Below, piece after piece: positions 28,718 to 43,379 of a DNA stretch of 64,000 nucleotides. How positions within the stretch are numbered: the stretch's first letter is position 1; every line of letters starts with the position of its first letter. The notes below the pieces were generated by a model, which had not been told where the DNA came from, searched no databases, and was given only the letters and a program-made list of their open reading frames with translations. The translations under genes and the position numbers were made by a program. Origin of the DNA: Malacoraja senta (lineage: Eukaryota); the NCBI GenBank assembly GCA_038087875.1, contig CM075993.1:5892001-5956000 (forward strand), written 5' to 3'.

Positions 28718-28852
28718 GTGGAGAGACTGATCTCGGAGAAAGGCTGGGAGTTTATGTGGAACGAGCATCTGGGCTACATCCTGTCCTGCCCGTCCAACCT
28801 GGGCACTGGACTGCGGGCCGGGGTGCACATGAAACTGCCCATGCTCAGCAAG
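28718..28852 (+). CDS. CKMT1: Mitochondrial creatine kinase, coding exon 7
   Basis: cccag|[45 protein letters not shown]|gtaccg; phosphagen-kinase active-site CPSNLGT; 135 bp. Confidence 0.96.
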
Positions 28853-29559
28853 GTACCGTAACCCCGAGAGGCACCGAGCCTCACCGCACAGCGCACAGAG
28901 GCCATCTCCGCACCCTAGACTGATACAAAGTGGTGGAGTAACTCAGTGGGTCAGGCAGCATCTCTGGAGAAAGATAAAATGTGACGTTTTGGGTCGAGAC
29001 CTTTTCTTCAGACTGAGACTCAGGGGAGAGGGAAACTAGAAGTATGAAAAGGTTCAGAACAAATTAGAGCCGGCACCGATGACCAAGGAAAGGTGGAGCC
29101 CACAATGGTCCATTGTTGACTGTGGAAGGGGTGATAACAAAGGGATATCTGGATGCGAACAGTGGAACTAGCAGGACGACTAGGGTGGGGGAGGGATGGA
29201 GAGAGAGGGAATGCAAGGGTTACTTGAAATTGGAGAAATCAATATTCATACCGCTGGGTTGTAAGCTGCCTGTCTGGTGTTGAAACAGGGGACCCTAACA
29301 CCACTTCTCTGTATCTGACTCACATTTGCCCCTGCCCTGGGAGTGAATGACGGCACACTCGAGAGGAAGATATACTTTGTGTCTTGTCCTAACTTATCAA
29401 ATTGTGCTTCTGATTCTGACGGATTCTGGCAACTTGGCAAATTGAATTTCACTACACCAATTGGTGTATGACAATAAATGAACCTTTGAACCTTTGAGAT
29501 GTTAAATGTTCAGAGCCAAGAGGCACACATCTGCAACTTGTATTATCCAGGGCATGGGA

Positions 29560-30022
29560 GCATGTAATGGATCAATGTGGAGGGAGCTTTACCTTGTGTC
29601 TAGTCGTGCTGTCAATGTCTTGGCAGCGTTCAGTGGGACAGAGTAAAGGGAGCTTCAGTATGTATCTCCCAGTTCGAACCCAACCCAGACTATAGGTTCC
29701 GACACTTACACATTGTATCTAACGCATCCATGCCCTGGGTCTGTTTGCTGGGATAGTGTAGAGGGAGCTTCACTCTGTGTCTAATATGTGCATTCAATGC
29801 CTTGACAGTGTTTTATGGGATGGTGCAGAGGGAGTTTCATTCTGTATCTAACACATCCATGCCCTAGGTTGGTTTGTAGGGACAGTGTAGAGGGAGCTTT
29901 TATCTAACCTCGTCAGTCAATGCCTTGTCAGTGTTTGGCGGGGCAGTATCGATGGAGTTTTTATACTGAGTCTAATGCATCCCTGCACTAGAATTGTTTG
30001 TGAGGCAGTGTCGAGGCAGCTT
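29560..30022. repeat. Degenerate ~59-bp tandem minisatellite (gggacagtgtagagggagcttt..tgtatctaac); related units at ~22370-22500
   Basis: Core agggagcttt/agggagcttc/agggagtttc recurs at ~29581, 29648, 29762, 29828, 29890, 29953. Confidence 0.75.
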
Positions 30023-30094
30023 AAAGGGCCTGTCCCACGAGCACGCGACTGCATGCGGCAAGCACGACCTAACGTGGTCGCTTGAGCCGTGCGG

Positions 30095-30294
30095 NNNNNN
30101 NNNNNNNNNNNNNNNNNNNNNNNNNNNNNNNNNNNNNNNNNNNNNNNNNNNNNNNNNNNNNNNNNNNNNNNNNNNNNNNNNNNNNNNNNNNNNNNNNNNN
30201 NNNNNNNNNNNNNNNNNNNNNNNNNNNNNNNNNNNNNNNNNNNNNNNNNNNNNNNNNNNNNNNNNNNNNNNNNNNNNNNNNNNNNNNNNNNNNN
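30095..30294. other. Assembly gap (200 N)
   Basis: Run of N. The true gap size is unknown. It truncates the GPCR C-terminus and probably hides the CKMT1 3' exons. Confidence 1.
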
Positions 30295-31499
30295 GCTGTA
30301 TCTCCAACGTACCTTGGGTGATGGAGAAGGGAGTTGGGCTCCGTGCGATGTCGGATCTGCTCACGTCCCGGGTCGGACCCCGGCCCGCCCGCCTCAGGGC
30401 CTCCTCCGAGACTGGCTGGGCCTTGAGACCGAACCACAGGCCCAGCAGCTCCCTGGCCTGGCGCCTGATCTGGCGGTTCAGCAAGGCGTAGAGGAGCGGG
30501 TCCAGCACGCAGTTGGTGAAGGTGAGCCAGGTGGCGAGGAAGTCCAGCATCCTGCCCGTGCCGTCCCGGGAGAGCGCGTGGCGGCAGCAGAGGTTGGAGA
30601 TGAAGTACGGCAGCCAGGTGACTAGGAAGGTGGCCACCACCCCAAGGATGGTCTTGGCTGTCTTGGCTTCCATCGCCACGTCCAACGGCCCCGTCCCACT
30701 CAGGTTAAAGTTGGAACTGGAGACATCAGACCTGCCCACATTCGAGGGAAGCTGGCGTGTCTGAATGTCTTGGGCTCCTGGAGTACCAGGGTCCCATTGT
30801 GGTCAGAGGATAGGCTGAGGGGGGAGCGTCGGGCTTTGGCCAAGAGGCGTTGCCTCGTCACTTGGTATATCAAGTAATAGGAGGTGGTCACCACCACCAC
30901 AGATGTCAGGTAGACCCAGATAAAGAGGTAGAGGCCGTAGGCCAGGCTCGAACCTCCGTCTGGCCAACTGTAGTCACACAAACACTTGGAAGGGGAAAAC
31001 CTGTAGAGACCAACGCCAAAGAGTGGGGGCAGTCCACACAGGAGACCGGTCCACCACAGGAAGGCCATCATCCTCTTTGCTCTGGCCCTGGTCACGGTGA
31101 GTATGAAGGGCCGGGCGATCAGGTAGTACCTGTCCACAGCGATGCCCGCCACGCACAGGATGGAGACCAGCCTGAGGGAGAAGGTCAGGAAGCCCGTGAC
31201 CTGGCAGGAGGTCGGGCCAGCGGCCAGGCCCCGGCGACGGTCGCCACGACGACGAAGGGGAGGCCCAGCAGGAGGAGGAGCAGGTCGGCCACGGCCAGGG
31301 ACGCCACGAACATGTTGGCGACGCTCCTCAGAGAGCGCGTCCGGGAGATCAGCGCCAGCACGAGAACATTGAGCGGGAGCCCGAGGACGAGGACGAGCAG
31401 GTAGAGGAACGCCCTGGCGACCGTCTCTACCGGCGACTGCTCTGGTCCAGTGCCGTTGGGTCCTAGACCCCCTGAGGCCCAGGTGGGAAGACCCTCCAT
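30295..31499 (-). CDS. Class A (rhodopsin-like) orphan GPCR, GPR161/GPR101-like; intronless CDS with two 1-nt frameshifts; 3' end runs into the gap
   Basis: gacATGg at 31499; N-terminal NGT sequon; TM1 LGLPLNVLV; TM2 NMFVASLAVADLL; ECL1 WPL(G)PTSC; TM3 IAVDRYY; TM4 W..LPPLFG; ECL2 CLC; TM6 FLVTWLPYF; TM7 WLTFTNCVLDPLLY; helix 8 NRQIRRQ. Stitched from three overlapping ORFs (31185-31577, 30700-31152, 29972-30739). Confidence 0.9.
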
Positions 31500-32877
31500 G
31501 TCACCGGAGCGATGGAGGCCAACCTTTCCCTCGGCTCCTGAATGCCCATTGGGTCTGGGCTTCAGGGTCTCAGTCACTCAGAGGGCGGTGGGTGCATGGA
31601 ATGAGGGAGTTCAGACAGGTGCTGTAACGTGTTTAAAAGACACTAGGACATGGATGGGAAAGGTTTAGAGAGATATGGGCCAAACACGGGCAAATGGGAC
31701 TAGCATCGTGCTAGTAGGGCAGCATGGTGGAGCAGTGGTAGAGTTGCAACACCAGGGACCCACTTTCAATCCTAACTGCTGGTGCTGTCTATACGGAGTT
31801 TGTATGTTCTCCCATGACCTATGTGAGGTTTCCTCCGGGTGCTCTGGTTTCCTCCCGCACTCCAAAGATCTACAGGGTTGTAGGCTAATTGGCTTGGTAA
31901 AATTGTCACTAGTGTGTGTAGGATAGTGTTAGTGTGTGTGGATCGCAGTTCGCCCGGGACTCGGTGGGCTGAAGGGCCTGTTTCCGTGCTATCTCCAAGC
32001 TAAACTAAACATAGATGGGACATCTTGGTTGGCATGGACGAATTATGCTGAAGGTTCTGTTTCCACACTGGATAACGATATCAGTCCTCCGTTAGGTTTA
32101 ACCCTTTGATGTCTGGTGATTCCTCCACATGGCTACAATGGTAAGGCCTTGACTCCAGGATTTCCCACTGACACCGTGGTCTATCGACACTGGCCGGCCC
32201 TCTTAGTGTTGGGGTCACCTGGAAACAAAAAAGAAACGCAGCACACTTTAGTACTTTAGAGATACAGCGTAGAGAAACAGGCCCTTCGGCCCACCAAGTC
32301 AATGCTGAGCAGTGAGTACCCTGTACACTAACACTATCCTACACATTAGGGACAATTTGCAATGAACAGAAGCCAATGAACCTGCAGACCTGCACGTCTT
32401 TGGAGTGTGGGGGGAAACCGGAGCACCCGGAGAAAACCCACGCAGTCTCTGAGAGAATGTACAAACTCTGTACCAACAGCAGCCGAGGTCAGGATCGAAC
32501 CTGGGTCTCTGGCGCTGTGAGGCAGCAACTCTACCGCTGCGCCTTAGAAACTTGGTAATTATTACCGTGACTGTGACTGTGCGTGAGTGAGTGCATTATC
32601 ACATTGCAGAAGGTGGACAAAAATGCAAAAAACGTTTCTCCAGCATTTTTGTCTACCTTTGATTTTCCAGCATCTGCAGTTCCTTCCTAATCACATTGAA
32701 GAGGTTGTCTCCACGCTGCAATTTCGGGGCATTTCTGGATCGAGCTTTACGTGATAGATTTGTATGTGGATTGTTGGATGATCAGAATTACTGAACACAC
32801 CAAGCCCTCACCATTGATCCAGAGTTAACGTCACAGGTGGATGACGTTAAGATTCAACATTCAAGATTCAATTTAAT

Positions 32878-33410
32878 TGGAAGGACATTATTGCCATAGA
32901 GGGAGTGCAGAGAAGGTTCACCAGACTGATTCCTGGGATGTCAGGACTGTCTTATGAAGAAAGACTGGATAGACTTGGTTTATACTCTCTAGAATTTAGG
33001 AGATTGAGAGGGGATCTTATAGAAACTTACAAAATTCTTAAGGGGTTGGACAGGCTAGATGCAGGAAGATTGCTCCCGATGTTGGGGAAGTCCAGGACAA
33101 GGGGTCACAGCTTAAGGATAAGGGGGAAATCCTTTAAAACCGAGATGAGAAGAACTTTTTTCACACAGAGAGTGGGTGCATCTCTGGAACTCTCTGCCAC
33201 AGAGGGTAGTTGAGGCCAGTTCATTGGCTATATTAAGAGGGAGCTAGATGTGGCCCTTGTGGCTAAAGGGATCAGGGGGTATGGAGAGAAGGCAGGTACG
33301 GGATACTGAGTTGGATGATCAGCCATGATCATATTGAATGGCGGTGCAGGCTCGAAGGGCCGAATGGCCTACTCCTGCACCTAATTTCTATGTTTCTATG
33401 TTTCTATGTC
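32878..33410 (+). mobile_element. CR1 LINE 3' end
   Basis: VQRRFTRLIPGMSGLSYEERLDRLGLYSLEFRRLRGDLIETYK; tail (tttctatg)n. Confidence 0.93.
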
Positions 33411-34500
33411 ACATGTACCAATTAAGGTGGAGTGAAATTTGAGTTACCATACAGCCATACCAAGTGAAAAGCGAAATACACACAGCTCATAAAATAAACA
33501 TTAACATAAACATCCGCCACAGTGGAATCAACATTCCTCACTGTCACTCTGTTGGTTTACAAACACTGCAGCAGGCAAGGGCCGTTTTGCACAGACATGT
33601 TATCAAAATCCACAAAAATCCACTCTCAAGATAATCAAAATCATTATTTTTTGCACAATGTCATAAGACATCTACATTATCTATATTTTGTGTAATTGTC
33701 TATCCATGATCAATATTTTCATACTAAATATCTGACTAAAAACTATGTGCTGTGGAAGTTTTTAGTCAGATATTTACTATGAAAATATTGATCATGGATA
33801 GACAATGGATGACTATGATGGAAGGCAATAAAGTTCAATCATCTTCCTCCTTTGTTCACCCGTGGTCGGGGCCTTGAACTCTCAGTACTTGTCGTTGCCG
33901 ACAGCCGCAGTTCAAGCCCGAAATGTGCCATGGAATCATTTAAATCTACCTGGATTTTTAGACCCACGTACCTGACCTTCCATCTACCTCACTGGAGACC
34001 TTTCAACCATCTTTAATCAGACTTTAATGTTATATCTTGCACGAAACGCTGTACCCTTTATCTGTGCACTGTGGATCACCTGAGTGTAATCATATACGGT
34101 CTTTTCTTTGACTGGATAGCATGCAATCAAATGCTTTTCACCGTGACAATAAGAAAACTAAACTATCTCAGGATTTCTAACCCCTGCCCTTTAGGCTCAA
34201 TTAATTCGTTTTTGTAGTGCAGAACACAAAATGCTGGAGTAACTCAGCGGGACAGGCAACAAAGGCTGACTTATTCCAGCACTGTGTGTTCAATGCAAGG
34301 TTCCAGCATCTGCAGTTCCTTTGTGCAGGAAAGAACCGTAGATGCTGGTTTAAATCGAAGGTAGACACAAATGCTGGAGTAACTCAGCGGGACAGGCAGC
34401 GTCTCTGGAGAAAAGGGATGGGTGAGGTTTTCGGGTCGAGACCCTTCTTCAGGCTGATCCTTGTGCACCTATTTTTAAAGTGTTGATACTTTAACATATC

Positions 34501-34775
34501 GGGCGGCACGGTGGCGCAGCGGTAGAGATGCTGCCTTACAGCGCCAGAGACCCTTGTTCGATCCTGACTACGGGTGCTTGTCTGTACGTTCTCCCCATGA
34601 CCTGCGTGGGTTTTCTCCGAGATCCTGGGTTTCCTCCCACACTCAAAGACGTACAGGTTTGTAGGTTAATTGGCTCGGTAAATGTAAACGTAAATTGTCC
34701 CTGATGTGGTAGGGATAGAGTTAATGTGCGGGGATCACTGGTCGGCGCGGACTCAGTGGGATGTATCTCTAAACA
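34501..34775 (+). mobile_element. tRNA-derived V-SINE (HE1-type); representative of about 20 copies
   Basis: A box TGGCGCAGCGG, B box GTTCGATCC, V-domain core (gttctccccgtgac..gggttttctcc..gtttcctcccacactccaaagac), LINE-like tail. Other copies at ~6314, 11542, 14682, 17600(-), 19020(-), 24820(-), 25280, 26415, 31717, 32255(-), 43000, 47520(-), 51567, 52759, 54840(-), 55626, 57440(-), 58490, 62485. Confidence 0.9.
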
Positions 34776-34816
34776 AAAAACCTCACCCCCAATAGCACTG
34801 TAACCTCTCCCCCTCA

Positions 34817-35706
34817 AGAGAGGAGGGGAGTGAAGAAGAGGGGAGGGGAGGAGGGGAGGGGAGGGGAGGGAGGGGAGGGGAGGGAGGGGAAGGGAGGGGA
34901 GTGGAGGAGTGGGGAGAGGGGGGAGGGGAGGGGAGAGGAGGGGAGGGGAGGGGACAGGAGGAAGGAGAGGGGAGAGGAGGGGAGGGAGGAAGGAGAGGGA
35001 GAGGAGAGGAGGGGAGGGGAGGGAGAGGGGAGGGAGGGAGGGAGGGAGGGGAAAGGAGGGGAAGGGGAGGGAAGGAGAGGGGGAGAGGAGGGGACAGGAG
35101 GAAGGAGAGGGGAGGGGAAGGGAAGAAGGGAGAGGGGAGAGGATGGGAGGGGAAGGGTGTGGAGGAGTGGGGAGAGGAGGGGAGGGGAGGGGAGAGGAGG
35201 GGAAGGGAGGGAGGGAGGAAGGAGGAAGAGGAGGGAGGATAGGGAGGGGAGGAGGAGAGGGGAGAGGAGGGGAGGGGAGGGGAGGGGAGGGGAGGGGAGG
35301 GGAGGGGAGGGGAGGGGGAGGGGAGGAGGGGTGGAGGAGTGGGGAGAGGGAGGGAGGGGAGGGAGGGGAGGGGAAGGGAGGGGAGTGGAGGAGTGGGGAG
35401 AGGAGGGGAGGGGAGAGGAGGGGAGGGAGGAAGGAGAGGGGAGAGGAGGGAGAGGGGAGGGAGGAAGGAGAGGGGAGGGGGAGGGGAGGGGAGGGAGGGG
35501 AGGGGAGGGAGGGGAGGGAGGGGAGGGGGATGAAGGAGAGGGGAGTGGAGGAGTGGGGAGAGGAGGGGAGGGAGGGGAAGGGAGGGGAGTGGAGGGGAGG
35601 GGAGAGGATGGGATGGGTTGGGAAGGGAGGGGAGGGGTGAGGAGGGAGGGGAGGGAGGGGAGGGGTGAGGAGGGAGGGGAGGGGAGGGGAGGGGATGGGA
35701 GGGGGT
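34817..35706. repeat. Polypurine (GGGGA/GGA)n tract
   Basis: Directly visible. Confidence 0.98.
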
Positions 35707-36530
35707 GAATTGTCAGCCAGAAGTAAATGAAGAGGTATATCAAACCATGACTTCCCGTCTAAGGGCAAGAGGCTAACAGGGTGAAGGGAACCAACTCATC
35801 CAAACCAGCCCAACACGATGACTTCATGGGCAAGCCACCAGGTCTCGGTCTTTAGAAGAAACTAAATTGGGAAAATTTGGTCCTAAACACCTCTGTGTCC
35901 TTGTGAATCAATGACAATCCCTCTTTTATTTCAAACACATACTTGCCCGAGAAAAGCTAAAGCCGGGCAAGTTAACACATGTTGCTCAACAGAAAATCTT
36001 ACATCACCTTGAGAAGAGAGAACAGCCCGACTATTGTTAACTCTAGTGTAGGGAAGGAACTTCAGATGCTGGTTTCAAACCGAATGCAGACACAAATAGC
36101 TGGGAGTAACTCAGCGGGTCAGGCAGCATCTCTGGGGAGAAGGAATGGGTGAAGGTTCGGGTTACATCAATCTCTGGTTTCTGGTTCTCTTTCCCTGACT
36201 CTCAGTCTAATGCCCTGTCTCACGGTGCGAGTCCATCCACGAGTGATCCGAGTTTAAAACAAATCAAACACGTAGAATTAACGTAGCAGGGGACGTCGGA
36301 ACTCTGAACGCCAACGGCAGGTACTCGGAAACTGTTAACTTGTGAAATCTTTCACACGATGAAAGATTTTCCACGAGTCAAATTGACTCTTGAAGTAAAC
36401 ATTTTCAACTTTAAAACTCGTTGTACGAACGTAAGTAGCCCGTGAGTTTACCGCAGTGACTCGTGAGTCTACCGTGGGCACTCTTTAACTCACCGGACAG
36501 GCAGATCCTATGCTCGCTGTTCGGATTTTT

Positions 36531-36565
36531 GGTCTGAAGAAGGGCCCCGACCCGAAACGTCACCC
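36531..36565 (+). ncRNA. Minimal hammerhead-ribozyme-like motif in the Penelope-derived repeat (representative copy)
   Basis: ggt-CTGAAGA-a-GGGcccc gaCCC-GAAAC-GTC-acc: both conserved core boxes, a stem II hairpin, palindromic ACGT stem III, GUC triplet and ggt/acc stem I. Confidence 0.6.
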
Positions 36566-38274
36566 ATTCCTTCTCTCCAGAGATGCTGCCAGTTACTCTA
36601 GTTATTTGTGTCTATATTAAGTTAACTTTGTGACCTTACCAGTCCTGCTCCACAGCCCCTGGTGCGAGTATTCCCCGGTGTGGGGAGTTTGTGGCCCCGA
36701 TCACAGGTCGGGGCAGTTTTTGACCCGGGCTTCGCCGCTGGTGATCTGTCCTCTGAGAGGGAGCGCTGTTCCTGGGGTTGGTGGTCCCTGGGGTGACATT
36801 CCTCCCCTACTGCTGAGGAAGCAGACCGTTTCCTGTTTCTGTCCCGTGTTCCTTTGTCCAATCCCTTTGGCATTCCCGCCTCCAGTCTGTGCACATTGTC
36901 AGAGCTGGGATAATGGGATGACAAACGTGGATCACCAGGCTTAAGAACAGCTTGTTTCAGAAGGAACTGCAGATGCTGGAAATCGAAGGTAGACTAAAAA
37001 TGCTGGAGAAACTCAGCGGGCGAGGCAGCATCTATGGAGCGAAAGGAATGGGTGATGTTTCCTATTTCCTTCGCTCCATAGATGAGTTGGTTCCCTTCAC
37101 CCTGTTAGCCTCTTGTCCATAGATGCTGCCTCGCCCGCTGAGTTTCTCAGCATTTTTGTCTACCTTCAAGAACAGCTTCTTACCCACAACCAGCAAGCTG
37201 CCCAACACTACCTCAGCTGTGAACCATGCACTGATTCACTTACTGATCTTTTCTTTTGTGTTTATTATATATTATTTTTTGGTGAATTGTGTTTAGTTTA
37301 TTGTCACGTGTGCCGAGGTACAGTGGAAGGCTTCGGTTGGTGTGCTAACCAGTCAGCGGAAAAAGACAATCACAAAATGCTGGAGTAACTCAGCGGGACA
37401 GTCAGCGTCTCTGGAGAGAAGGAATGGGTGACGTGGATAAATCCGTGGATATATCCGTGGATATATCGTAACGGCTCGTTATGCCAGCCGTGGGTACTCG
37501 GGGCATCAGGTAAGTCGGGGCGTTTTTTCCAGCGTGATGAAAAATGTCCACGAGTTTTAAAAAATAGCCCCGAGTACCTACGGCTGGCACAACGAGCCGC
37601 TACGATATATTCCACGGCCTCCTACGGCCTCGTTACGAACATTCTGCGAGTTTGAAAACTCGGGGGAATTCGCGAATAACTCGGGGAGAGTGGGACAGGC
37701 CCTTAATGGAGTGGAGAAAACCAGCGAGCAAAGAGAGAACAGGATGGAGAAACTAATGGAACAGCAGAGATGAGCTAGAGGGAGATCAGAGATCAGTGCG
37801 GTGCAGATGATCAGTGCAGGGGACCCGGCAACAAGAAGGCAGTGGAAGAGGCGAGCCATGATCACAATGAATGGCGGTGCTGGCTCGAAGGCCGAATGGC
37901 CTCCTCCTGCACTGATGTATACTTTCTATGTTTCTATGAAAGGAGAAATGAGAGGGTTAAGTTTCCGAGCTCTATTTCCTTGTTGCATTGCACATTGTCT
38001 TAAGGCAGTTCCGCTAATTGTTTTTATTAATCCATTGAGGGAGGGGGGTGGGGGCAGCCCAGCAACACGAGTTATTTCAAAGCAAATCTGAACAAGCCTC
38101 TTTCAACTTCCCCCAACTTTTAATTATAAAGAGAACATTCAAAGCATTTCATTCTGAGGTCAGATTCCAGGCTTGAAACAAGCAACTTCTCTGGGTAGCG
38201 TGAATGAGGAAGTGGTGGGGGAGAAGGAGACTGGGCTTCATGCTTACACCCACCACATGCACGGTTGAACAACT

Positions 38275-38343
38275 GAGAAGAGAAGAGAGAGGGAGAGAGG
38301 GGAGAGAGCGGAGAGAGAGGAGAGAGAGGAAGAGAGGAGAGAG

Positions 38344-38377
<34 letters not shown>

Positions 38378-38571
38378 GGGAGAGAGAGGAGAGAGGGGAG
38401 AGGAGAGGGGGGAGAGAGAGAGGAGAGAGAGAGAGAGAGAGAGAGGAGAGAGGAGAGAGAGAGAGGAGAGAGGGAGAGAGGGGAGAGAGGGGAGAGAGGG
38501 AGAGAGAGGGAGAGAGGGAGAGGAGAGGGGGGAGAGAGAGAGGAGAGGGAGAGAAGAGAGAGAGAGAGAGA

Positions 38572-38639
<68 letters not shown>

Positions 38640-38676
38640 GGAGAGAGGGAGAGAGGGAGAGAGGGAGAGAGGGAGA

Positions 38677-38765
<89 letters not shown>

Positions 38766-38996
38766 GGAGAGAGGGAGAGAGGGAGAGAGAGAGAGAGGGA
38801 GGAGGAGAGGGAAAGAGGGGAGATTCTTTCATGGAATGTGTGTGCATGTTGTGTGCACCACAGAAACACTGTGTGTGTGTGTGTGTGCGTGTGCAGGTGC
38901 ATGGTGTGCGTGTGCGTGTGCGTGTGCGTGTGCGTGTGCATGTGCGTGTGTGTGCGTGCGGGTGCGTGTGCATGTGCGTGTGCGTGTGTGTGTGTG
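38275..38996. repeat. (GA)n polypurine tract followed by (GT)/(GC) repeats
   Basis: Directly visible. Confidence 0.98.
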
Positions 38997-39533
38997 CCTC
39001 TACAGTGCATTCTGAAAGTGTTCAGACCACTTCACTTTTTCCACAGGGGTCTGAATACTTTCTGAATGCAAGTTCAAGTTCAAATTTAATGCACTATATG
39101 TTCCCCCTCCCCCCCCCCCCCCCCCCCCTCTCTCTCTCTGTCTGCTGTGCTTTGCATGCCTGCAATGCTCACAGTTGTTTACCAGCCCCGAGCCTCTCCC
39201 GAGTGTATTTCTGAGCTCTGGGATGAGCCCTGCCTCCCATCAGAGAGAGCTGTTTGCTTCCAGTATTTCCTGTGGGAAGTCGGGTGCTTGCATCAGTAAA
39301 CATCCTGGCCCAAGCCTGTTGTGGTGGGTTCCCTTCCCCTCCTGCGGCGTAAACAGAGCCCTCCAAACCTCTCCTCTCCACGTGCCTGAAGTTCCCACAG
39401 TCCTCTCAGCAAACACCCATCAAACCATGGTTGGATAAAATCAATCACCACTCATGTCTTGTCTAAAGATAAACAAAAAAATGCTGCAGTAACTCAGCAG
39501 GTCAGGCAGCATCTCTGGAGAAAAGGGATAGGT

Positions 39534-39761
39534 TGTAATGGCGCCTGTTGGCGTACGCAGAGGTCGTACCTGGCGTTCGGAAGCCGCAGTCACGTGCCTC
39601 GGCAGGGGCCGCTTGTTTCGCACGGTTTTTCACTTGCGCGCGTTAGTTCAGCGCTGACCACCGCTGTGGGCAGACGTGTCTGTAGAACCTGTATACTGGA
39701 TATCGAGCTTGTGAATAAAGATCTGTTGGAAACCCCAGTTGTCGTTCTTCAGACCGCCAAA
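39534..39761 (+). mobile_element. Probable solo LTR (Gypsy-like)
   Basis: Starts TGTA, contains AATAAA near its 3' end, is flanked by a 4-bp duplication AGGT, and interrupts the Penelope-tail motif ggataggtgacg; the 3' CA is not preserved. Confidence 0.55.
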
Positions 39762-40126
39762 AGGTGACGTTTCGGGTCGAGACCCTTCTTCAGTCTGAGA
39801 GTCAGGGGAATTATAAACAGGTTGGCCGCTTAGTTTAAAGATACCCCTGCCTGGGGAAAGAACAGCTCCCCCCGAAGAGTTTTGTAAAATCCAATGAGGG
39901 ATTACAGAGATAAGGAGGAAGGAGGACTATGGGATCCTATGTAAAATGGCGCTGAGGTAAAAGATTGGCCTCAGTCAGGGGTTCTGGGGAGAAGGCAGGA
40001 GAATGGGGTTGAGAGGGAAAGATAGATCAGCCATGAATGAATGGCAGAGTAGACTGGATGGGCTGAATGGTCTAATTCTGCTCCTAGAACATAAACATTT
40101 GAATGATAACGCAGGACCTGAAGGGC

Positions 40127-40632
40127 TGGGGTTGCCAACTTTCTCACTCCCAAATAAGGGACAAAAGGTGGCGTGTCCAGGGACAGTTTGGCAACCCTAC
40201 ATACAACTGATGCGCATAAGGGATGAGTGGATGACAGGTGAATCGCTAGCGAATGGCATCACAGCACATGCAACACGCACGCACGCACGCACGCACGCTG
40301 TTGTATCAGATCTAGGATCTGTCTGTAAGCGTGCCCTCTGGTGATTACAGAGTACAGTAGTAGCCAAATATATATAGGATCTTTGGTAGTAGCAGTCAAA
40401 ATACTGGACAAGGGCGGTCCCGTACGGGACCAACAATTTAACCGGGGTGGGAGATTGCAACCTTCACGTTGTCCGCCCTGTTTCGACGAATGCAATCAAC
40501 CTGGGCGTGCACAAACAAATAAGAACAAATAGAACAAGTTGTCTTACAACTTTAGGCTGTGCAGCCATAGGCAAGAAGAAGAACCCAATATATGGGATTT
40601 CCCAGCTAATACGGGACAGTTTGGCAACCCAA
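40127..40632. mobile_element. hAT-like non-autonomous element
   Basis: TIR GGGTTGCCAA / TTGGCAACCC; 8-bp TSD TGAAGGGC at 40119-40126 and 40633-40640. Confidence 0.82.
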
Positions 40633-40964
40633 TGAAGGGCCAAATGTCCTACTGAAATTTAGCGTTTTTATATTTGGCCCAGGAAGACCAAGACATTTCT
40701 GTTTCTCCAGATCTTCAGCCTCCTGGTTTTTAATCGCTCCACACATTGGCAGATCGCCTTCAGCTGCCCTGGGCCTCTGTCCTCACATCCTCACCCACTG
40801 AAACCTCACCCCAGTCTCTCCACAGACGCTGCTGATCCCATCCACATTTCCATGACCGATATTTTTTTTTAATGCATTTCTGATCAAACCTGCTGTAATG
40901 CAGAACGCAGAACAATACAGCCCAGGAACAGGCCCTTCGGCCCACAAGGTCTGTGCCAAACACT

Positions 40965-41400
40965 TTCTTCTTCTTTTAGGCCCCCTTCGGTCATGGCTGA
41001 CCATGGGTGTCTCCAGGGTTCTATTCCCTATATGGAGGACGCCTGTGCGTGACTTTGTTTACCGTGGGGAGACTGGTGCACAGACAGCCACCCCACGGTT
41101 CTTGACAGATCTGGGTCAGGATCCAGTGGCATGGAGTCCAAGACGACCGGAGACCCTTTTCTGCTGCAGCCTTCATCCGCCTTCCAGCCGTTGTGACGCC
41201 CCACTAAGGTCAGCCATCGTCCTCCGCCTGTTCCACCCTTGAGGTCTTGGTTGGATTGGCTCTTTGTCAGGGACCTCCCCCTCGACCGTACCGCCATGGG
41301 TGACCCTACCAGGAGCATAGCTCCAGACGACATCGCTCTCAAGGGATCTCAGGACCACACGAGCTTCTCCACCACGACAAGGTGACAATCCACGCCAAAC
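40965..41400. mobile_element. Probable RTE-clade (Expander/Rex3-like) non-autonomous fragment
   Basis: (ttc)n end and ccatgggtgaccctaccaggagcatagctcc..ccaccacgacaagg motif recalled from RTE 5' regions; recognition only. Confidence 0.4.
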
Positions 41401-42344
41401 ACCATGCCAGGATAAACTCGACATGATTCACATCCCTCCATTCCCAGTATCCATGTTCCCATCTAAAAGCCTCTTCTGTGCCCGTATATCTGTCTGCACC
41501 AGCACTCCTGGCAGTGCTTTCTAACCACCCACCACACTGTGTAAAATATACTTGCCCCCTCCACATCTCCATTAAAATCTACCCCTTTCGCAGGTGGTTG
41601 TCACTAGTAGTTTGCTGTTGAATCACATCTGATTTATGTCCCTGAAGCAGTGTAGAAATGCCCCTGGGGGAGTTTTACCTCTTTGATGCAATTTTTTTTC
41701 CGTATCGTATCTCTGCCTCGACCGCCCCCGATCGCAGGAGCTTCAACCGCCCCGACTGCGGACGGTTCGACTGCCCGGACCGCGGGAGAAAAGGAGGAAG
41801 AAGATAAGACTTTATTGCCTTCCATCACAGTGGGGAATGTGGTGGAGCCACTGTGGTGGAAGTTTATGTTAAATTTCATGTAATTGTGCATCTTGTTGCT
41901 AGTTTTGGTATGACTGTGTGGCAAATCAAATTCTTTATATGTTGCAAAACATACTTGGCTAATAAAATTACAAATATGACTAAAGATTGTGTTTCAATAG
42001 ACCCGGAGGTGGAGGGGGAACTAAAATAGACCGTAACACTGGCAGAGTGTTTCCGACATGCGCAGGCATGGTCTACACGCACACGCGAGCTCACAACATA
42101 CACACACAAACACGCACACACAAGCACAAACACGCACAGACGCAGTCCATGCTAGGGAGGACAGAAATGCTGGAGAAACTCAGCGGGTGAGGCAGCATCT
42201 ATGGAGCGAAGGAAATAGGGTTAGGGTTTCCTTTGCTCCATAGATGCTGCCTCACCCGCTGAGTTTCTCCAGCATTTTTGTCTACCTTCGATTTTCCAGC
42301 ATCTGCAGGTCCTTATTAAACAAAGTCCATGCTGGGGAATAGTT

Positions 42345-42583
42345 GACACAGACACACAGACAGACACACACAGACACACACAGACACACACAGACACACA
42401 CAGACACACACAGACACACACAGACACACACAGACACACACAGACACACACAGACACACACAGACACACACAGACACACAGACACACAGACACACAGACA
42501 CACAGACACACAGACACACAGACACACAGACACACAGGCACACAGGCACACAGGCACACAGGCACACAGACACACAGACACAC
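42345..42583. repeat. (CAGACACACA)n / (CAGACACA)n microsatellite
   Basis: Directly visible. Confidence 0.97.
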
Positions 42584-42763
42584 GGATAAGTTCACTAGCT
42601 GCACAAAAGGCCCATGGAATTGCAGATCAAAGCAGAAATCATGTCGGAGCAAACAGCACATTCCAACAGCATCCACTGAGAATAAACAGGATAACAATTT
42701 GAATGGTGGAGTGGTAATTTTCTACATCAGATTATTCACAATCAAAAGGATTCCAGTCCAAGT

Positions 42764-42769
42764 TTTATT
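42764..42769 (-). terminator. Probable STRC polyadenylation signal AATAAA
   Basis: tttatt on the + strand just downstream of the inferred stop codon. Confidence 0.55.
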
Positions 42770-42795
42770 CACTAATTGTACAAAAAAAAAAAAAA

Positions 42796-42929
42796 TCAGG
42801 ATCCAAATCGAATGCAAGCCCATTCCAGCTGACACCCACTCCAACGTTCCCCAAGAAAGCAGGCGACCGAGAGGCACAGGCTGAGGGCAGCAAGGTTGAA
42901 CGAGGCTGATAAGGGAGATGTATTCTTGC
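42796..42929 (-). CDS. STRC: Stereocilin probable terminal coding exon
   Basis: tttacag|(G)KNTSPLSASFNLAALSLCLSVACFLGERWSGCQLEWACIRFGS*; phase-1 compatible; hydrophobic stretch ending FLG; AATAAA about 30 nt after the stop. Confidence 0.72.
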
Positions 42930-43379
42930 CTGTAAATTTAAAGAGAAGTTGTACTTAGTAGACATTCAACGGTTATTCGCCTGCAGTTATAGGTGGAGCT
43001 GTGGTAGATTTGCTGCCTCACAGCGCCAGAGACCCGGGTTCGATCCTGACTACGGGTGCTGTCTGTACGGAGTTTGTACGTTCTCCCCGTGACCACGTGG
43101 GTTTTCTCCGGGATCTCAGGTTTCCTCCCACACTCCAAAGATGTACAGGTTTACAGGTTAATTGGCTTGGTGGAAATGTAAATTGTCCCTTGTGTGTGCA
43201 GGATAGTGTTAGTGGTCGGTGTGGACTCGGTGGGCCGAAGGGAATGTATCTCGGAACTAAAACTAAACTAGAGCGACTGTATCAGCAACAAACAGCTGGC
43301 GGACCTCAGCAGATCAGGCAGCATGGGTGAAGGGAAATGGACAGATTAATTTCTTAGCAATAGACTTGATGGGCGGGAA

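What the first reader, a model, noticed from the sequence alone, without database searches (positions are those of the whole stretch)
30295..31499. Hidden orphan GPCR (GPR161/GPR101-like) between CKMT1 and STRC
Seen: three overlapping minus-strand ORFs join into a complete 7TM class-A receptor with all seven helices, an N-terminal NGT sequon, the TM3-ECL2 cysteines and helix 8. Known: in mammals CKMT1 and STRC are convergent neighbours and I know of no receptor gene between them; canonical GPR161 is multi-exon and lies elsewhere. Local motifs (LPFVV, IAVDRYY, LPPLFG, TIL.V...F.VTW.PY, ATWL.F) recall GPR161. Inference: a separate paralogue of the GPR161/GPR101 group retained in cartilaginous fish and lost in mammals, which annotation could miss or mislabel as a pseudogene because of the frameshifts and the gap.
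Basis: partly seen in the sequence, partly recalled or inferred. Interest (0 to 1): 0.8.

Follow-up and report, generated by a model that had tools for sequence, protein, structure and literature searches.

The report
Ancient orphan receptor kept by sharks
This skate DNA encodes a seven-helix cell-surface receptor of an unnamed family found in sharks, rays, a chimaera, amphioxus and sea squirts and apparently lost in bony vertebrates; its two reading-frame breaks are likely assembly errors, and it likely signals without a ligand, as GPR161 does.

Summary
The receptor is real. Three minus-strand frames give one class A GPCR. Contigs of a near-identical public run carry one extra base at both frameshifts, so the breaks are most likely assembly errors. 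The tail continues in a second exon hidden in the gap.

It is not hidden from databases: intact models exist in 21 cartilaginous-fish species, under nine conflicting automatic names. It is not a vertebrate duplicate of GPR161 (26% identity; AU test rejects). It forms its own clade with amphioxus and tunicate orthologues (100/99), sister to a clade that contains an octocoral protein. No bony-vertebrate member appeared in an exhaustive profile search, so the loss probably predates mammals.

GPR161 is the nearest solved relative. The two share the ECL2 hairpin and its Trp, Tyr6.51 and Trp6.48. GPR161's ciliary motif, sterol-site Trp and tail are absent. The family has a buried Arg3.36 and no Pro5.50.

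Most likely mechanism (inferred): ECL2-driven basal Gs/cAMP signalling. Rival: gating by an anionic ligand. Linkage to CKMT1 across the gap and the STRC identity were not confirmed with tools. GPR101, GPR135, GPR45/63 and GPR21/52 could not be put in the tree.

The parts
30313..31499 (-). Main coding exon of the receptor: N-terminus, TM1-TM7, helix 8 and most of the tail (about 396 codons)
   Evidence: Pfam 7tm_1 on three pieces; tblastn 86-95% to the Amblyraja orthologue; seven helices plus helix 8 in the AlphaFold model of that orthologue
31216..31218 (-). Frameshift 1 (one base missing, ECL1 just before TM3), most likely an assembly error
   Evidence: Runs X1 and X2 show one inserted base here; orthologues are in frame
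30721..30721 (-). Frameshift 2 (one base missing, ICL3), most likely an assembly error
   Evidence: 4 of 4 laid runs show one inserted base here
31449..31457 (-). N-terminal N-glycosylation sequon (Asn15)
   Evidence: Sequence; Asn15 is nearly invariant in alignment A1
31171..31173 (-). Arg3.36 (R110), a buried basic residue typical of this family
   Evidence: R in 18 of 20 chordate-clade rows and 0 of 5 sister-clade rows of A6; not R in the 4 GPR161 rows tabulated
30964..31008 (-). ECL2 beta-hairpin with Cys45.50 (30978) and the invariant Trp179 (30966-30964), in register with GPR161 C178/W182
   Evidence: Predicted strands 166-169 and 174-177; gap-free alignment to GPR161 up to the Trp; W in 25 of 25 rows
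31126..31134 (-). DRY motif, TM3
   Evidence: Sequence
30668..30670 (-). Glu6.30 (E278), partner of the ionic lock; GPR161 has Gln here
   Evidence: Acidic in 18 of 20 chordate-clade rows
30488..30502 (-). DPLLY (N/DPxxY) motif, TM7
   Evidence: Sequence
30311..30312 (-). GT splice donor of a conserved phase-1 intron in the tail
   Evidence: Donor context; RefSeq isoforms of Hypanus and Mobula diverge at this codon; contigs of X2, X21 and X22 stop matching at 30313 and run on for 344, 1136 and 1419 nt, while X1 continues to 30295
30095..30294 (.). 200-N scaffold gap; would hold the receptor's last exon and the last two creatine kinase exons (inferred)
   Evidence: neither set of exons was found in the window
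28718..28852 (+). Last visible exon of the creatine kinase gene (CKMT1-type), convergent with the receptor
   Evidence: Translation; upstream exons hit Pfam ATP-gua_Ptrans and ATP-gua_PtransN; the name CKMT1 is recalled
42799..42930 (-). Probable last exon of the right-hand gene (STRC by recalled resemblance): AG acceptor, hydrophobic C-terminus, stop, AATAAA; about 11.3 kb upstream of the receptor ATG, same strand, no gap between
   Evidence: identity not confirmed by Pfam or PDB

Best explanation
[quoted passage not shown] Shown: the 7TM anatomy, the missing bases in contigs of public runs, the clade, and the conserved ECL2 Cys/Trp, Tyr6.51 and Trp6.48. Inferred: the ECL2 Trp packs on Tyr6.51 above the Trp6.48 toggle and holds the receptor partly active; it couples to Gs and raises cAMP; output is set by expression and location, or tuned by an anionic small molecule or lipid at Arg3.36. 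It would not use GPR161's sterol site, ciliary motif or PKA-anchoring tail. My odds: intact gene 0.92; own family, not orthologous to a named human receptor 0.8; loss in bony vertebrates 0.7; ECL2-driven basal Gs signalling 0.45.
For: Intact: extra base at both breaks in X1; in-frame orthologues in 20 of 21 chondrichthyan species. Own family: clade of 11 rows at 100/99 in the LG+C20 tree and of 12 rows at 99 in the 150-row FastTree; AU rejections; 26% identity to GPR161 against 40% to amphioxus. Distribution: of the best 150 hits among 1.84 billion cluster representatives, those after the chondrichthyans are Branchiostoma (330 bits), four tunicates (206-268) and one unnamed ENA protein (244); two more word-index searches returned no bony-vertebrate member. 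Mechanism: the two best Foldseek hits are GPR161-Gs structures, rmsd 2.1-2.2; GPR161 is the best profile hit; ECL2 hairpin predicted; W179 in 25 of 25 rows, Y6.51 in 23 of 25, W6.48 in 20 of 20 chordate-clade rows. These are the residues described as the GPR161/GPR101 activating relay (PMC12444479, passages; bioRxiv 10.1101/2023.05.23.540554, passages). TM5 is predicted helical to residue 229 and 34.51 is Phe; that these go with Gs/Gq coupling is recalled knowledge.
Against: The margin over ligand-gated receptors is thin: GPR161 126.8 bits against 5-HT1A 126.0 with the elasmobranch profile, and 201 against 196 with the wide one. The union with the GPR161 branch has only 53/86 support. The position matching GPR161 V179, one of three activating ECL2 residues, is Asp or Glu in 12 of 12 chondrichthyan rows. 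Asp2.50 (14 of 14 chondrichthyan and amphioxus rows) and acidic 6.30 (18 of 20) are kept, whereas GPR161 lacks both; these usually stabilise the inactive state (recalled). Trp7.56 of the sterol site that GPR161 needs for Gs coupling is absent in 25 of 25 rows. The same hairpin-plus-Trp loop occurs in the other clades of the tree, and opsins were the best PDB hits of the middle piece, so it may be only a lid. X1 may be the sample the window was assembled from. No functional or tissue data were found.
Confidence: 0.45

Rival explanations
1. Same family, but a conventional ligand-gated receptor for an anionic small molecule (a carboxylate, phosphate or sulfate metabolite or lipid) anchored by Arg3.36, with ECL2 as a lid.
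For: R3.36 in 18 of 20 chordate-clade rows from amphioxus to skate. In HCA2, R3.36 binds the agonist carboxylate and is essential; that paper reports it otherwise only in HCA receptors, GPR35, OXER and GPR31 (PMC10516952, passages). Sodium-site D2.50, S3.39 and N7.45, DRY and E6.30 are retained in the five chondrichthyan rows tabulated.
Against: R3.36 is Gln in Callorhinchus and Ciona savignyi, and D2.50 is lost in tunicates. The HCA receptors are delta-branch and unrelated, so this would be convergence. The best structural match is GPR161.
Confidence: 0.33
2. It is the slowly evolving orthologue of a named human orphan that I could not place in the tree (for example GPR135, GPR45/63, GPR101, GPR21/52, GPR62, GPR26/78), or bony-vertebrate orthologues exist but escaped the searches.
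For: Those families were not available as named sequences for the tree. Word-index searches are insensitive: one search missed even some of its own query rows. An orthologue above 50% identity to a shark protein would hide inside a cluster. P0055 is unnamed.
Against: The word search did recover Callorhinchus at 46% identity to skate. RefSeq gives nine different '-like' names and never a gene symbol. GPR101 scores 162 bits, and GPR21, GPR52 and GPR61 are not among the best 60 PDB hits. No row of the 150-row tree other than the 12 named falls in the clade.
Confidence: 0.15
3. The gene is a genuine pseudogene in this species and the frameshifts are real.
For: Two frameshifts in the assembly; the Rhinoraja model P0003 also leaves the frame in TM6.
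Against: The near-identical run X1 (3 substitutions in 1111 nt) carries both missing bases; there are no in-frame stops, and identity to Amblyraja is 94-95% across TM1-TM5.
Confidence: 0.04
4. It is an aminergic receptor or an opsin, as several automatic names and the top hits of the middle piece suggest.
For: RefSeq names such as octopamine, tyramine, 5-HT1E and histamine H2 receptor-like; rhodopsins top the PDB search of the middle piece.
Against: 3.32 is never Asp and 7.43 is never Lys in 25 of 25 rows; the amine clade is separate at 100/99.
Confidence: 0.03

Closest known systems
GPR161 (human; PDB 8KH4, 8SMV)
   Same: Best match by fold (rmsd 2.1-2.2) and by profile. Same ECL2 length and register with Cys and terminal Trp; Tyr6.51, Trp6.48, acid at 7.35, Thr7.39-Trp7.40, Phe7.43, Arg8.51.
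   Different: 26% identity; separate clade, each with its own invertebrate orthologues. It has Asp2.50, acidic 6.30, Arg3.36, N/DPxxY and no Pro5.50. It lacks Trp7.56, the (V/I)KARK motif and any tail similarity. The 7TM region is in one exon.
GPR101 (PDB 8W8Q, 8W8R)
   Same: Type II beta-hairpin ECL2 with the Trp-Tyr6.51 contact (PMC12444479); rank 11 in Foldseek.
   Different: Scores 40 bits below GPR161 and below 5-HT1A and CCKAR; rmsd 5.1; not placed in the tree.
Amphioxus and tunicate orphan receptors (Branchiostoma XP_066273413; Styela XP_039257460; Phallusia CAB3250712; Clavelina XP_076801275; Ciona savignyi H2Z3F8)
   Same: Same clade, 100/99; share Arg3.36 (not Ciona), the WxxGG motif after the ECL2 Cys, acidic 6.30 and loss of Pro5.50 (not Ciona).
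   Different: 32-42% identity, longer tails; tunicates have lost Asp2.50. They carry only automatic names.
HCA1-3, GPR35, OXER1, GPR31 (Arg3.36 carboxylate receptors)
   Same: Arg at 3.36 beneath an ECL2 hairpin lid (PMC10516952).
   Different: Delta-branch receptors, unrelated; none is among the best profile or fold hits. A convergent hint only.

Membership tests
Class A (rhodopsin-like) GPCR | Pfam 7tm_1 above cut-off; seven TM helices plus helix 8 | tested here: met
Class A (rhodopsin-like) GPCR | N1.50, D2.50, DRY, W4.50, WxP, N/DPxxY, Cys3.25-Cys45.50 | tested here: met
   Pro5.50 is replaced in 19 of 20 chordate-clade rows
GPR161 | Phylogenetic grouping with GPR161 orthologues | tested here: not met
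   Separate starred clades; AU p 3e-77 and 0.014
GPR161 | ECL2 hairpin with hydrophobic M177/V179/W182 entering the pocket | tested here: inconclusive
   Hairpin predicted; Leu and Trp match, but the V179 position is Asp/Glu; model coordinates could not be inspected
GPR161 | Sterol site I7.52/W7.56/R8.51 | tested here: not met
   W7.56 in 0 of 25 rows; 8.51 basic in 25 of 25; site from bioRxiv 10.1101/2023.05.23.540554
GPR161 | (V/I)KARK ciliary motif in ICL3 (motif recalled) | tested here: not met
   Absent in 7 of 7 family proteins scanned, present in both vertebrate GPR161 rows
GPR161 | C-terminal PKA-RI-binding amphipathic helix | tested here: not met
   Tail 361-419 has no helix and pLDDT under 50; in the rows shown, BLAST alignments of chondrichthyan proteins to GPR161 end at helix 8
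GPR161 | Constitutive Gs/cAMP activity and ciliary location | not testable with these tools
   Needs expression assays
GPR101 | Phylogenetic grouping with GPR101 | not tested
   No named GPR101 sequence was available for the tree; profile score only
Aminergic receptors | Asp3.32 (recalled) | tested here: not met
   0 of 25 rows
Opsins | Lys7.43 (recalled) | tested here: not met
   0 of 25 rows
GPR135, GPR45/63, GPR21/52, GPR62, GPR26/78 | One-to-one orthology | not tested
   Named sequences could not be fetched; GPR61 was in the tree and is a separate clade

The most novel reading that the evidence does not exclude
An undescribed class A receptor lineage as old as the cnidarian-bilaterian split, kept as one gene in amphioxus, tunicates and all cartilaginous fish and deleted from the CKMT1-STRC interval in the ancestor of bony vertebrates. 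It combines a GPR161-type ECL2 lid with a convergent Arg3.36 anion site, and so senses an unknown acidic metabolite or lipid that marine chordates and sharks still signal with.
Probability: 0.25. Interest if true: 0.7.

Novelty: new member of a known kind. Interest (0 to 1): 0.45.

Why it matters
It adds an unnamed, very old branch to the class A receptor tree, and one concrete case to the poorly known gene families that cartilaginous fish kept and bony vertebrates lost (208 such families in PMC8455134, section 35). As the nearest outgroup-like relative of GPR161 that lacks its Hedgehog-related parts, it offers a direct test of whether ECL2 self-activation is older than GPR161's sterol, ciliary and PKA-anchoring features. 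It also corrects nine misleading automatic names and an apparent pseudogene. It is not a new kind of system, and no phenotype or ligand is in hand, so interest is moderate.

Tried and rejected
No whole genome is held for this window, so copy number, the species' own GPR161 and the gap contents could not be checked. No contig spans the gap. A scan of metagenome contigs gave 110 pattern matches and no relative. ESM Atlas listed only general 7tm_1 clusters for the shark and amphioxus proteins; its GPR26 and GPR45 rows are leads only. STRC identity: 0 of 16 ORFs and 0 of 8 exon pieces hit a stereocilin or mesothelin family, and the PDB search gave only a chance hit. The bacterial promoter scan does not apply to this organism. 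The planned tail-only comparison with GPR161 was cut at the wrong place and became a near full-length comparison. The skate sequence AKARR resembles GPR161's KARK but lies four residues off and is not conserved, so I rejected it as a ciliary motif. An Arg3.36-Asp45.51 salt bridge was considered, but the two do not co-vary (chimaera Q/E, amphioxus R/A). Literature: ten searches listed no paper on this family. The catshark paper's supplement could not be read. In the whale shark paper I searched 12 of 24 supplements plus file 19 without a hit; its orthogroup membership file is too large to read and may list this family. Earlier findings of this scan: none in three look-ups.

Full report
Observation. 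The minus strand carries one class A GPCR in three frames: 31499-31218, 31218-30721 and 30721 to the gap. Each piece hits Pfam 7tm_1 above its cut-off, and together they cover profile positions 2-260. tblastn with the Amblyraja radiata protein XP_032870953 gives 88/94, 157/166 and 117/136 identities over the three pieces, so the window is from a skate (inference). The region is GC-rich (0.66-0.68) with CpG observed/expected of 0.66-0.79, against 0.31-0.50 in the flanks.

The frameshifts. Both are single-base losses. Of 24 runs listed I laid 4. X1 shares 79% of the sampled words; its 1111-nt contig at depth about 30 differs by 3 letters and has one extra base behind 30721 and one behind 31216. 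All 4 runs show the first insertion. X1 and X2 show the second; no such row is listed for X21 and X22, and five rows of that table were not shown. X1 may be the sample the window was built from, which would still make the breaks assembly errors. I read the gene as intact.

Gene structure. The coding exon ends at 30313, before a GT donor. RefSeq isoforms of Hypanus and Mobula, and ab initio models of two sharks, diverge or stop at exactly this codon. Contigs of X2, X21 and X22 stop matching at 30313, without the GT, and run on for 344, 1136 and 1419 nt, while X1 continues into the intron. That pattern fits spliced transcripts in two related species. The tool marks their RNA status as a guess, so it is a hint of expression, not proof.

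Neighbours. Left of the gap are creatine kinase exons (Pfam). The last visible one is 28718-28852, and the final two were not found with recalled motifs. The gap would therefore hold the 3' ends of both convergent genes. On the right, with no gap, a multi-exon minus-strand gene ends near 42800. I agree from memory that it resembles stereocilin, but no tool confirmed it. That CKMT1 and STRC are neighbours in mammals is recalled; it makes the join plausible, but no contig bridges it.

Distribution. Orthologues are annotated in 21 chondrichthyan species (skates, rays, sharks, Callorhinchus) under nine automatic names. A profile of 14 elasmobranch sequences run over all 1.84 billion cluster representatives (best 150 listed) gave, after three chondrichthyan rows, Branchiostoma (330 bits), Styela, Phallusia, Clavelina and Ciona savignyi (206-268) and an unnamed ENA protein P0055 (244). 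I looked up 20 of the 147 new representatives by cluster and ran 4 against the PDB; the rest were placed only by tree. No bony vertebrate or cyclostome was identified in the clade. Limits: an orthologue above 50% identity to a shark protein would be hidden in a cluster; the word-index searches that should catch it found Callorhinchus but missed amphioxus; and P0055 has no known origin.

Phylogeny. A FastTree of 150 rows (8 multi-domain, partial or redundant rows skipped and 3 dropped for lack of TM7) and an IQ-TREE LG+C20 tree of 43 of them both give a clade of chondrichthyans, amphioxus, tunicates and P0055 (100/99). Its sister (99/97 together) is a five-row clade whose only named member is the octocoral Xenia, so a pre-bilaterian origin rests on one name. 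GPR161 is a separate clade (100/99) with vertebrate rows, Saccoglossus and other invertebrate rows, and it has a different sister (96/88). The union of the two branches has 53/86 support. Forcing the shark genes with vertebrate GPR161 costs 108 log-likelihood units (p 3e-77); forcing the family with all GPR161 rows gives p 0.014. GPR101, GPR135, GPR45/63, GPR62 and GPR21/52 were not in the tree, because no named sequences were available.

Anatomy and mechanism. The AlphaFold model of the Amblyraja orthologue (mean pLDDT 72; helices mostly above 85) has seven helices, helix 8, an ECL2 hairpin at 166-177, a TM5 that runs to residue 229, and a disordered ICL3 and tail. Its two best Foldseek hits are GPR161-Gs structures (rmsd 2.1-2.2). 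In GPR161 and GPR101 a hairpin ECL2 acts as a built-in agonist, its last Trp packing on Tyr6.51 above the toggle residue (PMC12444479, passages). GPR161 M177, V179 and W182 mutants lose cAMP output, and I7.52/W7.56/R8.51 bind a sterol needed for Gs coupling (bioRxiv 10.1101/2023.05.23.540554, passages). Here the Trp is present in 25 of 25 rows, Tyr6.51 in 23 of 25 and Trp6.48 in 20 of 20 chordate-clade rows.

Against self-activation: the V179 position is acidic in chondrichthyans, Trp7.56 is absent, Asp2.50 and acidic 6.30 are kept, and the loop pattern is shared with unrelated clades. Arg3.36 (18 of 20 rows) recalls the carboxylate anchor of HCA2 (PMC10516952, passages). I commit to ECL2-driven basal Gs signalling at 0.45, with gating by an anionic ligand at 0.33; the two are not exclusive. 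Absence of Asp3.32 and Lys7.43 rules out the amine and opsin labels. All signalling steps are inferred.

Comparison and novelty. It probably works like GPR161 but fails the membership tests for it (tree, sterol Trp, ciliary motif, tail). The Ensembl-based survey of vertebrate class A receptors without human orthologues (PMC6504862; I read part 1 of 7 and passages) lists no cartilaginous fish in its species table and has no occurrence of 'shark' or 'GPR161'. The whale shark paper (PMC8455134; passages, section 35 and part of the supplements) counts 208 families lost in bony vertebrates and names no such receptor in what I saw; its membership file was unreadable. Of the catshark paper (PMC11979771) I saw only the search listing, and its supplement, which may hold expression data, could not be read. 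Ten searches listed no description of the family; subscription journals are not covered.

Verdict. A real and probably intact gene; a new, unnamed subfamily within a known kind; already modelled but misnamed in databases. Interest 0.45.

Noticed in passing
window 28853-30294: The creatine kinase gene lacks its last two exons in this assembly; they would lie in the 200-N gap, which is then much longer than 200 bases.
   Followed up: partly
P0003 (Rhinoraja longicauda XP_078285965): This RefSeq model leaves the frame in TM6 and ends at 320 aa: another assembly indel, or a real loss in that skate.
   Followed up: no
P0013-P0018 (Hypanus, Mobula): Three alternative last exons per species give different C-terminal tails from the same donor, suggesting regulated tail switching.
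   Followed up: partly
P0028 and P0029 (Callorhinchus milii): The chimaera has Gln at 3.36 where all elasmobranchs have Arg; the shorter UniRef model P0029 leaves the family sequence within ICL3 and looks mis-spliced.
   Followed up: no
P0058-P0060, P0062, P0150, P0192: The sister clade (one member named, from Xenia) has Leu at 6.48 and S/H/Y-R-Y in place of DRY: another unnamed orphan group.
   Followed up: partly
P0068, P0119, P0090, P0094 and nine related rows: An unnamed clade is sister to GPR161 (96/88); its best PDB hits are GPR161 (167 bits) and GPR101 (144).
   Followed up: partly
window 31632-31704 and 30014-30094: High-copy repeats (very high summed contig depth) flank the exon about 130 nt upstream of the ATG and at the left edge of the gap, a likely reason for the assembly break.
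   Followed up: no
window 29714-30022: A degenerate tandem repeat of about 125-nt period (74% identity between offset copies) lies in the last visible creatine kinase intron.
   Followed up: no
window 31500-42800: About 11 kb between the receptor ATG and the end of the right-hand gene, roughly half repeats, may hold a non-coding first exon or regulatory elements shared with that gene.
   Followed up: no
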